A DNA stretch of 64,000 bases from Octopus vulgaris (taxonomy: Eukaryota). The translations under genes were made by a program, and so were the position numbers. Numbering within the stretch: the first letter of the stretch is position 1; each line of letters begins with the position of its first letter. Below are positions 2,889 through 61,900 of the stretch, piece by piece. The stretch lies in the NCBI GenBank assembly GCA_951406725.2, contig OX597818.1, positions 42,036,001 to 42,100,000 on the forward strand, read 5' to 3'. The notes under the pieces were generated by a model, which had not been told where the DNA came from, did no database searches, and saw only the letters and a list, made by a program, of their open reading frames with translations.

Positions 2889-3129
2889 ACAAAACAATGG
2901 GCAGCTGATATGATCCAATCTTTATGCACGATTGTTCCCCCGCAAAAATGTGATGTAGTGAAGTATGAATCAGAATATTGGCCAGTAATACGTTGAACTG
3001 TCACCTGCCATGGATACCTGCCATATACGGCATCCTGACCATTAACTATTTTAGAGTAGGATGTTTTGTCAATTACTCTGTCAGCACGTTTGGTTCTTAC
3101 AAGGCGAGGTATTTTGCCACAGACTGGCG
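2889..3129 (-). CDS. Exon: zymogen activation region and N-terminal part of the trypsin-like (S1A) domain
   Basis: Phase 1-2, 241 nt; [42 protein letters not shown]...[20 protein letters not shown]. Confidence 0.95.

Positions 3130-61900: not shown

What the first reader, a model, noticed from the sequence alone, without database searches (positions are those of the whole stretch)
2889..61900. Hidden 24-exon mosaic protease: lectin, kringle, 7 LDLa, PAN, 2 SRCR, trypsin
Seen: small exons (49-241 nt) spread over 59 kb splice into one open frame, and most are invisible in the ORF track. Known: SRCR-LDLa-SRCR-trypsin proteases include insect Tequila/GRAAL and Sp22D, vertebrate neurotrypsin has kringle-SRCR-trypsin, and kringle plus PAN is the plasminogen/HGF combination. 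Inference: this is a cephalopod member with an unusually large recognition arm, a candidate pattern-recognition or cascade-initiating protease (immunity, haemolymph, gland secretion or nervous system). I cannot tell whether this exact architecture is already described.
Basis: partly seen in the sequence, partly recalled or inferred. Interest (0 to 1): 0.8.

Follow-up and report, generated by a model that had tools for sequence, protein, structure and literature searches.

The report
Octopus protease with switchable activation exon
This is a real, spliced octopus gene for a large multi-domain protease whose domain chain is old and shared with chitons, ribbon worms and bees, but it picks one of two alternative exons at the start of its protease domain, a swap also annotated in a chiton and a snail that likely changes how the enzyme is switched on, and it sits back to back with a copy that has lost its catalytic serine.

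Summary
The 24 minus-strand exons are real: AG/GT ends, 955 codons without a stop, and all four junctions laid on RNA contigs are joined in 4 of 4 runs. The gene is longer than the window: signal peptide and a third SRCR upstream, Asp102/Asp189/Ser195 downstream; a 1-base assembly insertion there is absent from RNA. The architecture is not a cephalopod novelty: SRCR-CTL-kringle-LDLa-PAN-LDLa-SRCR-LDLa-SRCR-trypsin recurs in chiton, cuttlefish, nemertean and bees (Tequila/Sp22D type; annotators call it svh-1-like); only the LDLa x5 block looks octopod-specific. (1) Exon 24 (A) has a mutually exclusive twin (B) 8.7 kb downstream; each joins exon 25 in RNA, both-or-neither gives a stop. A carries a long linker with an RxKR furin-type site, B a short linker. 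The same swap is annotated in chiton and a vent snail, and both exons exist in cuttlefish. (2) An inverted neighbour has Ser195 replaced by Asp; cuttlefish made dead copies independently. Verdict: new variant of a known family; interest 0.5.

The parts
57788..61900 (-). Exons 1-3 (61900-61730, 59493-59398, 57970-57788): C-type lectin-like domain, non-canonical sugar site
51386..55890 (-). Exons 4-5 (55890-55772, 51602-51386): kringle plus Thr-rich linker with 33-bp repeat
49005..49772 (-). Exons 6-7: LDLa 1 (two-exon cassette, phase 1-2-1)
42638..45164 (-). Exons 8-9: LDLa 2
37269..38461 (-). Exons 10-11: LDLa 3
35128..35972 (-). Exons 12-13: LDLa 4
31975..32501 (-). Exons 14-15: Thr-rich linker and LDLa 5
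26659..28478 (-). Exons 16-17: PAN domain
25062..25172 (-). Exon 18: LDLa 6
19659..24121 (-). Exons 19-20: SRCR (second of three in the full gene)
12270..12377 (-). Exon 21: LDLa 7
6956..8024 (-). Exons 22-23: SRCR (third) and Thr-rich linker; donor at 6956 is shared by the alternative exons A and B
2889..3129 (-). Exon 24 = alternative exon A (241 nt, phase 1 to 2): interchain Cys, RTKR furin-type site, K|IVNG activation site, His57. Its twin B (190 nt, same phases) lies outside the window at G000:C5:42030222-42030033; shared exons 25-28 with Asp102, Asp189, Ser195 at C5:42027575-42019650; signal peptide and first SRCR at C5:42137458-42102204

Best explanation
The locus encodes a secreted multi-domain trypsin-type zymogen with the Tequila/Sp22D domain chain, and splicing picks either exon A or exon B for the activation segment, which likely sets how the enzyme is activated and likely tunes what it cuts. 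Shown: signal peptide, SRCR-CTL-kringle-LDLa x5-PAN-LDLa-SRCR-LDLa-SRCR arm, complete His-Asp-Ser triad with Asp189; A and B have the same phases, each is joined to exon 25 in RNA contigs, and both-or-neither gives a stop. Inferred from trypsin-family biochemistry: the arm docks the zymogen on matrix, cells or partner proteins; cleavage at K|IVNG (A) or R|ITGG (B) frees the new N terminus while the Cys in the swapped exon keeps the protease tied to the arm. Isoform A would first be cut at RTKR by a furin-type convertase, leaving a 12-residue cap that needs a second cut; isoform B would be a plain single-chain zymogen needing one tryptic cut. A and B also supply different surface loops next to His57 (primed-side subsites), while the S1 pocket is shared, so both would cut after Arg/Lys with different neighbours. 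The likely job is pericellular or haemolymph proteolysis in tissue remodelling, wounding and growth, as reported for SVH-1 and Tequila. The inverted paralog is a protease-dead relative that likely acts as a binding partner, cofactor or ligand.
For: Exons, frame, domains. RNA junctions: 4 of 4 runs; B to exon 25 in 2 of 4 runs; assembly insertion absent in 4 of 4. A+B and neither give stops. Triad. Same ordered chain in 9 of 53 proteins with one LDLa and 3 of 53 with five; last SRCR best matches the last SRCR in 8 of 8 distant taxa, the middle one in 6 of 8. A/B swap at the same boundaries in RefSeq isoforms of O. sinensis, chiton and Gigantopelta; both exons in O. bimaculoides and cuttlefish models. 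Each of 4 B exons best matches another species' B, each of 4 A exons another A. RxK/RR site in 18 of 20 long-linker mollusc rows, 0 of 4 B rows, 0 of 11 non-mollusc or unnamed short-linker/outgroup rows. Furin activation of neurotrypsin (PMC9616769) and MASP1/3 splicing (PMC5826192) are precedents. Paralog.
Against: No biochemistry, no tissue identity: run labels are coded. The exon 23-to-B junction was not displayed (B contigs start with 28-29 letters off the laid stretch); it rests on that and on public models. 7 of 8 mollusc clusters checked list only the long-linker form (two clusters only partly listed), so B may be lost or unannotated in many lineages. AU tests on 54 columns do not reject separate origins of A/B (p 0.11, 0.17, 0.057). 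The protease tree leaves bee, deuterostome and plasminogen placement open, and no nematode SVH-1, fly Tequila or neurotrypsin sequence was in hand, so orthology rests on domain order. The first SRCR matches positionally in only 3 of 7 taxa. Chiton A has Asn before its LVGG, and 2 long-linker rows lack the RxK/RR site.
Confidence: 0.7

Rival explanations
1. It is a dedicated pattern-recognition protease that starts an immune cascade, like ModSP/HP14 or factor C, with the octopod LDLa expansion widening recognition.
For: Lectin, SRCR and LDLa modules; HP14/ModSP use an LDLa run to start cascades and Tequila rises after infection (PMC1761132; PMC11050137). LDLa x5 in octopods and 8-9 in the paralog.
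Against: No sushi/Wonton or clip modules; lectin site non-canonical; chitin-binding domains absent; the Tequila null shows no phenotype and Sp22D binds chitin but not bacteria.
Confidence: 0.2
2. Exon B is a tolerated duplicate with no distinct function, and the A/B pairs of octopus, snail and chiton arose separately.
For: AU tests do not reject separate origins; B unseen in 7 of 8 mollusc clusters; in run X11 a contig reads through the B donor into a stop.
Against: B is 98% identical in O. bimaculoides and 66% in cuttlefish against 36% to its own A; B exons group together in the best tree; spliced B contigs are not marginal in 2 of 4 runs.
Confidence: 0.1
3. The inverted paralog is a decaying duplicate rather than a working pseudo-enzyme.
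Against: 50 of 50 aligned cysteines kept and no stop where about 9 are expected under neutrality (rough estimate); the same Ser-to-Asp change stands in three Octopus species; it gained kringle and LDLa cassettes in frame.
Confidence: 0.25

Closest known systems
Insect Tequila/GRAAL, Anopheles Sp22D, honey bee SP23
   Same: Ordered chain SRCR-CTL-kringle-LDLa-PAN-LDLa-SRCR-LDLa-SRCR-protease is the same in three bee proteins; SP23 is listed as CBD-SR-Clect-KR-LDLA-PA-2LDLA-SP and as most similar to Sp22D (PMC1761132, passages).
   Different: No chitin-binding domains; five LDLa after the kringle; A/B exon swap and furin-type site; fly Tequila is described without kringle or PAN.
C. elegans SVH-1 (HGF/plasminogen-like)
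   Same: Kringle, PAN-like N domain and intact triad (PMC11305532, Introduction); NCBI names octopus, cuttlefish and chiton models svh-1-like; the top three Atlas clusters (0.95-0.96) are LDLa-SRCR-trypsin proteins whose few labelled members are mostly nematode.
   Different: SVH-1 sequence not in hand, orthology not tree-tested. SVH-1 is reported to lose protease activity by a His755 change linked to CDD-2; here a dead form comes from a paralog (and perhaps a read-through transcript).
Vertebrate MASP1 gene (MASP-1, MASP-3, MAp44)
   Same: One recognition arm, mutually exclusive splicing at the protease end, and a protease-less product (PMC5826192, passages).
   Different: Unrelated arm (CUB-EGF-CCP, recalled); MASP swaps the whole protease domain (recalled), here only the activation segment through His57 is swapped.
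Vertebrate neurotrypsin (PRSS12) and plasminogen/HGF
   Same: Kringle-SRCR-protease with furin-type activation (PMC9616769); kringle-PAN-protease with dead paralogs (HGF).
   Different: Neither has this domain chain; the RxKR site here lies 12 residues before the activation site rather than at it.

Membership tests
S1A trypsin-like serine protease (active) | His57, Asp102, Ser195 in AAHC, DIAL, GDSGGP | tested here: met
   frame restored in RNA contigs
S1A trypsin-like serine protease (active) | Asp189, Gly216, Gly226 and a basic activation site | tested here: met
   PDSCQ, SWG, PGVY; K|IVNG and R|ITGG
S1A trypsin-like serine protease (active) | Measured proteolytic activity | not testable with these tools
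   needs recombinant protein
Tequila/Sp22D/SP23 mosaic proteases | Ordered chain SRCR-CTL-KR-LDLa-PAN-LDLa-SRCR-LDLa-SRCR-SP | tested here: met
Tequila/Sp22D/SP23 mosaic proteases | N-terminal chitin-binding (CBM14) repeats of the insect members | tested here: not met
   PF01607 on bee hits only; N terminus is signal peptide, basic Cys repeats, SRCR. So: same lineage, not an insect-type Tequila
Tequila/Sp22D/SP23 mosaic proteases | Protease domain forms one clade with the insect proteins | tested here: inconclusive
   deep forks open
SVH-1 / HGF-plasminogen-like | Kringle + PAN + serine protease domain | tested here: met
SVH-1 / HGF-plasminogen-like | Orthology to C. elegans SVH-1 by tree | not tested
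SVH-1 / HGF-plasminogen-like | Activates a Met/SVH-2-like receptor | not testable with these tools
   receptor not searched for in G000 either
Vertebrate neurotrypsin | Kringle followed directly by 3-4 SRCR, no LDLa or PAN | tested here: not met
ModSP/HP14 cascade initiators | LDLa run followed by Sushi and Wonton domains | tested here: not met
   no sushi (PF00084) among Pfam domains of the octopus proteins
Mutually exclusive exon pair | Tandem homologous exons, same phases, each spliced to the same flanks, double inclusion breaks the frame | tested here: met
   upstream junction of B inferred from public models

The most novel reading that the evidence does not exclude
Molluscs have kept, since before chitons split from snails and cephalopods, a splice switch that gives one SVH-1/Tequila-type protease two activation routes (convertase-primed A, plain zymogen B), and coleoids have twice spun off protease-dead copies (octopus from A, cuttlefish from B) that act as HGF-like ligands for a Met-type receptor: a second, independent plasminogen-to-HGF split that could drive octopus nerve and arm regeneration.
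Probability: 0.15. Interest if true: 0.85.

Novelty: new variant of a known kind. Interest (0 to 1): 0.5.

Why it matters
The domain chain itself is ordinary for bilaterians, which removes the novelty first claimed. What would matter is the regulation: a conserved exon swap limited to the zymogen activation segment lets one gene make two enzymes with the same arm and S1 pocket but likely different activators and substrates, and it is directly testable with two recombinant isoforms. The repeated birth of dead paralogs echoes plasminogen/HGF and the protease-versus-growth-factor duality of worm SVH-1, and gives regeneration workers a concrete candidate. Practically, the public models from this assembly are broken by a 1-base error and miss isoform A.

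Tried and rejected
Two separate genes in the window: rejected by RNA contig lengths and by single-protein orthologs. Exon B as a second tandem protease domain or a separate gene: rejected, it has no own Asp/Ser exons and A+B gives a stop; the two-domain models P0001, P0007 and P0139 are annotation chimeras. Focal gene as frameshifted pseudogene: rejected, 4 of 4 runs lack the extra base. 'SPx2' is my short profile splitting one domain; each catalytic row has one GDSGGP-type motif. RNA pairing that could steer A/B choice: self-BLAST of the 15.4 kb around them gave one local palindrome and two short repeats, nothing interpretable. AlphaFold of P0137 without an alignment failed (pLDDT 30) and was not used. 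First dN/dS (1.22) had one exon out of frame; one search replaces it. In the protease tree one outgroup row (Trichosurus) was mis-cut and the outgroup is not one clade, so the root is unreliable; Elysia was left out of the exon tree. PDB search gave only SRCR proteins and TMPRSS/hepsin-type domains. No run was on record as RNA; contig depths were not used to rank isoforms. The search for a mollusc Met-receptor paper gave nothing relevant in the 20 listed of 848. Earlier scan findings: none shown.

Full report
Observation. The window is AT-rich, microsatellite-laden animal DNA. Scanning the minus strand gave 24 exons from 61900 to 2889, all with AG and GT ends. Spliced, they give 955 codons with no stop and matching phases at all 23 junctions. 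Pfam on 19 of the exons confirms lectin (weak), kringle, seven LDLa, PAN, two SRCR and trypsin. Contigs from 4 of 4 runs (2 studies, 2 organism labels) join exons 20 to 24 exactly; only bases 1-20000 were laid. Two of those contigs have exactly the length needed to carry exons 6-19 and end in the 33-bp repeat of exon 5. The closest named proteins are from Octopus and Argonauta.

The whole gene. The window is G000:C5:42036001-42100000. Upstream lie a signal-peptide exon, four micro-exons of basic Cys repeats, a linker exon and two exons of a further SRCR. Downstream lie four exons with Asp102, Asp189, Ser195 and the SWG motif. One of them is 169 nt in the assembly and shifts the frame; contigs of 4 of 4 runs lack one base there, so the transcript is intact. 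Public models from this sequence stop early or skip the place (P0017, P0134). Each isoform has 36 coding exons.

Architecture is old. A search with the Argonauta ortholog gave 487 proteins at E 1e-40 or better, 120 listed. With profiles seeded on the octopus protein I ordered the domains of 53 of them: SRCR-CTL-KR-LDLa-PAN-LDLa-SRCR-LDLa-SRCR-protease is exact in 9 (cuttlefish and two unnamed relatives, chiton twice, a nemertean, three bees) and has five LDLa in 3 (two Octopus, Argonauta); bivalves and snails multiply SRCR or kringle; echinoderms and a hemichordate share the kringle-to-protease core. The last SRCR best matches the last SRCR in 8 of 8 distant taxa, the middle in 6 of 8, the first in 3 of 7. 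Honey bee SP23, likened to Sp22D and Tequila, was listed with these modules (PMC1761132, passages), and amphioxus has SRCR-kringle-LDLa-PAN-trypsin proteins, some predicted inactive (PMC6337849, passages). The protease tree resolves cephalopods but not deep forks, so deep orthology rests on domain order.

Alternative exon. A second first-protease exon (B, C5:42030222-42030033, 190 nt) lies between exon 24 (A, 241 nt) and exon 25. Both run phase 1 to 2; both together or neither gives a stop. A joins exon 25: the loose end of run X8 is the start of exon 25 with one mismatch. B joins exon 25 in 2 of 4 runs (X2, X17); in X11 a contig reads on through the B donor into a stop; X12 has no cover of B. 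The junction into B was not displayed; RefSeq and UniRef models give exon 23 to B. RefSeq lists A and B isoforms with the same boundaries for O. sinensis (3 A, 1 B in that cluster), the chiton Liolophura (3 A, 1 B) and the snail Gigantopelta (1 A, 1 B); O. bimaculoides and cuttlefish models hold both exons. Against: of 10 clusters opened only Gigantopelta shows both; 7 mollusc clusters list only a long-linker form (15 of 29 and 15 of 25 members listed for oyster and mussel) and 2 deuterostome clusters only a short one. A search with four B exons added only cuttlefish paralogs and an annelid among 34 hits. Among four species each B best matches another B (51-66%) and each A another A, while own A-B identity is 36-46%; the best tree groups octopus, cuttlefish and snail B (97/78) and leaves chiton open; AU tests do not reject separate origins. 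One origin at the base of molluscs (over 500 million years, date recalled) is favoured, not shown.

What the swap changes. A has a long linker with RTKR 12 residues before K|IVNG; B has a short linker and R|ITGG. An RxK/RR site stands in 18 of 20 long-linker mollusc rows, in 0 of 4 B rows, 0 of 3 dead paralogs and 0 of 11 other rows, so the short form looks ancestral and A a mollusc addition. From trypsin-family knowledge (recalled), the swapped exon carries the Cys that ties protease to arm, the new N terminus, the 30s loop and His57; Asp102, the S1 pocket and Ser195 are shared. Hence the inference: A is primed by a furin-type convertase and needs a second cut, B needs one cut, and the two differ at the primed subsites. 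Furin activates neurotrypsin (PMC9616769, passages); MASP1 makes MASP-1, MASP-3 and MAp44 by mutually exclusive splicing (PMC5826192, passages).

Dead paralog. An inverted copy lies head to head at C5:42.243-42.354 Mb with exon A only, extra kringle and LDLa cassettes, GDDGGP for GDSGGP, a damaged activation motif and no RxKR. The Asp at 195 is in three Octopus species and the copies form one clade nested in Octopus (96/84). dN/dS against the active gene is 0.96 over 877 codons of 18 exons, 59 of 80 polarised changes are on the paralog, 50 of 50 cysteines are kept and no stop has arisen where about 9 are expected. Cuttlefish has two dead copies built on exon B (P0043, P0215), a separate origin by the tree (P0215 not in the tree).

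Function and literature. Worm SVH-1 works as a protease in larval growth and as an HGF-like ligand in axon regeneration (PMC11305532, passages and Introduction; the 2014 paper was not held). Tequila is abundant in fly haemolymph, rises after infection or wounding, and the null has no phenotype (PMC11050137, passages); a hypomorph affects sleep and memory (PMC12501825, abstract). Octopus skin mucus lists 'neurotrypsins' (PMC11431876, passages); the supplement that might name this protein could not be read. A sea cucumber preprint notes such SRCR genes in regeneration data without resolving this family (PMC13228809, passages). Searches listed no paper on this gene or its exon swap in molluscs; the library is open-access only and long lists were seen in part. 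Automated RefSeq annotation already contains both isoforms, unremarked.

Verdict. Observation confirmed; claimed novelty of the architecture not supported; the conserved exon swap and the dead paralogs make it a new variant of a known family. Interest 0.5.

Noticed in passing
G000:C5:42026186 region (L036:1886): One extra base in the assembly shifts the frame of the Asp102 exon; 4 of 4 runs lack it, and public models from this sequence are truncated or mis-spliced there.
   Followed up: yes
L036:5581-5923: In run X11 a contig reads through the donor of exon B into the intron, which would end the protein just after His57: a possible protease-less splice form like MAp44, or unspliced RNA. No AATAAA seen in the following 430 bases.
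   Followed up: partly
G000:C5:42278515-42289597: Two kringle cassettes of the paralog, 6.4 kb apart, give identical peptides; also several near-identical 3.5 kb LDLa cassettes at 42303900-42315700. Recent tandem copies or assembly duplication.
   Followed up: no
G000:C5:42121621-42112473: Four micro-exons (about 33-36 nt) encode basic Cys-containing repeats after the signal peptide; present in Argonauta, absent from the dead paralog. No family assigned.
   Followed up: no
P0136 (O. sinensis isoform X4) versus window 12270-12377: A RefSeq isoform skips exon 21 (LDLa 7, phase 1-1), so the arm is also alternatively spliced.
   Followed up: no
window 4150-6100: GC-rich degenerate LTR-retroelement-like stretch (integrase-like remnant between two similar terminal repeats near 4190 and 5860) in the intron before exon A; seen by eye.
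   Followed up: no
window 46560-45470, 41500-40650, 18820-18440; G000:C5:42100000-42100260 not examined: Transposon-like open stretches in introns (mariner/Tc1-like transposase remnants at 46560-45470, 41500-40650 and 63960-63670; a LINE-like end at 18820-18440), labels by recall from translations.
   Followed up: no
P0047, P0048, P0057 (clams): A second clam paralog carries two extra kringles just before the protease domain, a plasminogen-like arrangement.
   Followed up: no
P0013, P0005 (O. sinensis): Some O. sinensis models mix segments of the active gene and the dead paralog, pointing to mis-assembly or gene conversion.
   Followed up: no
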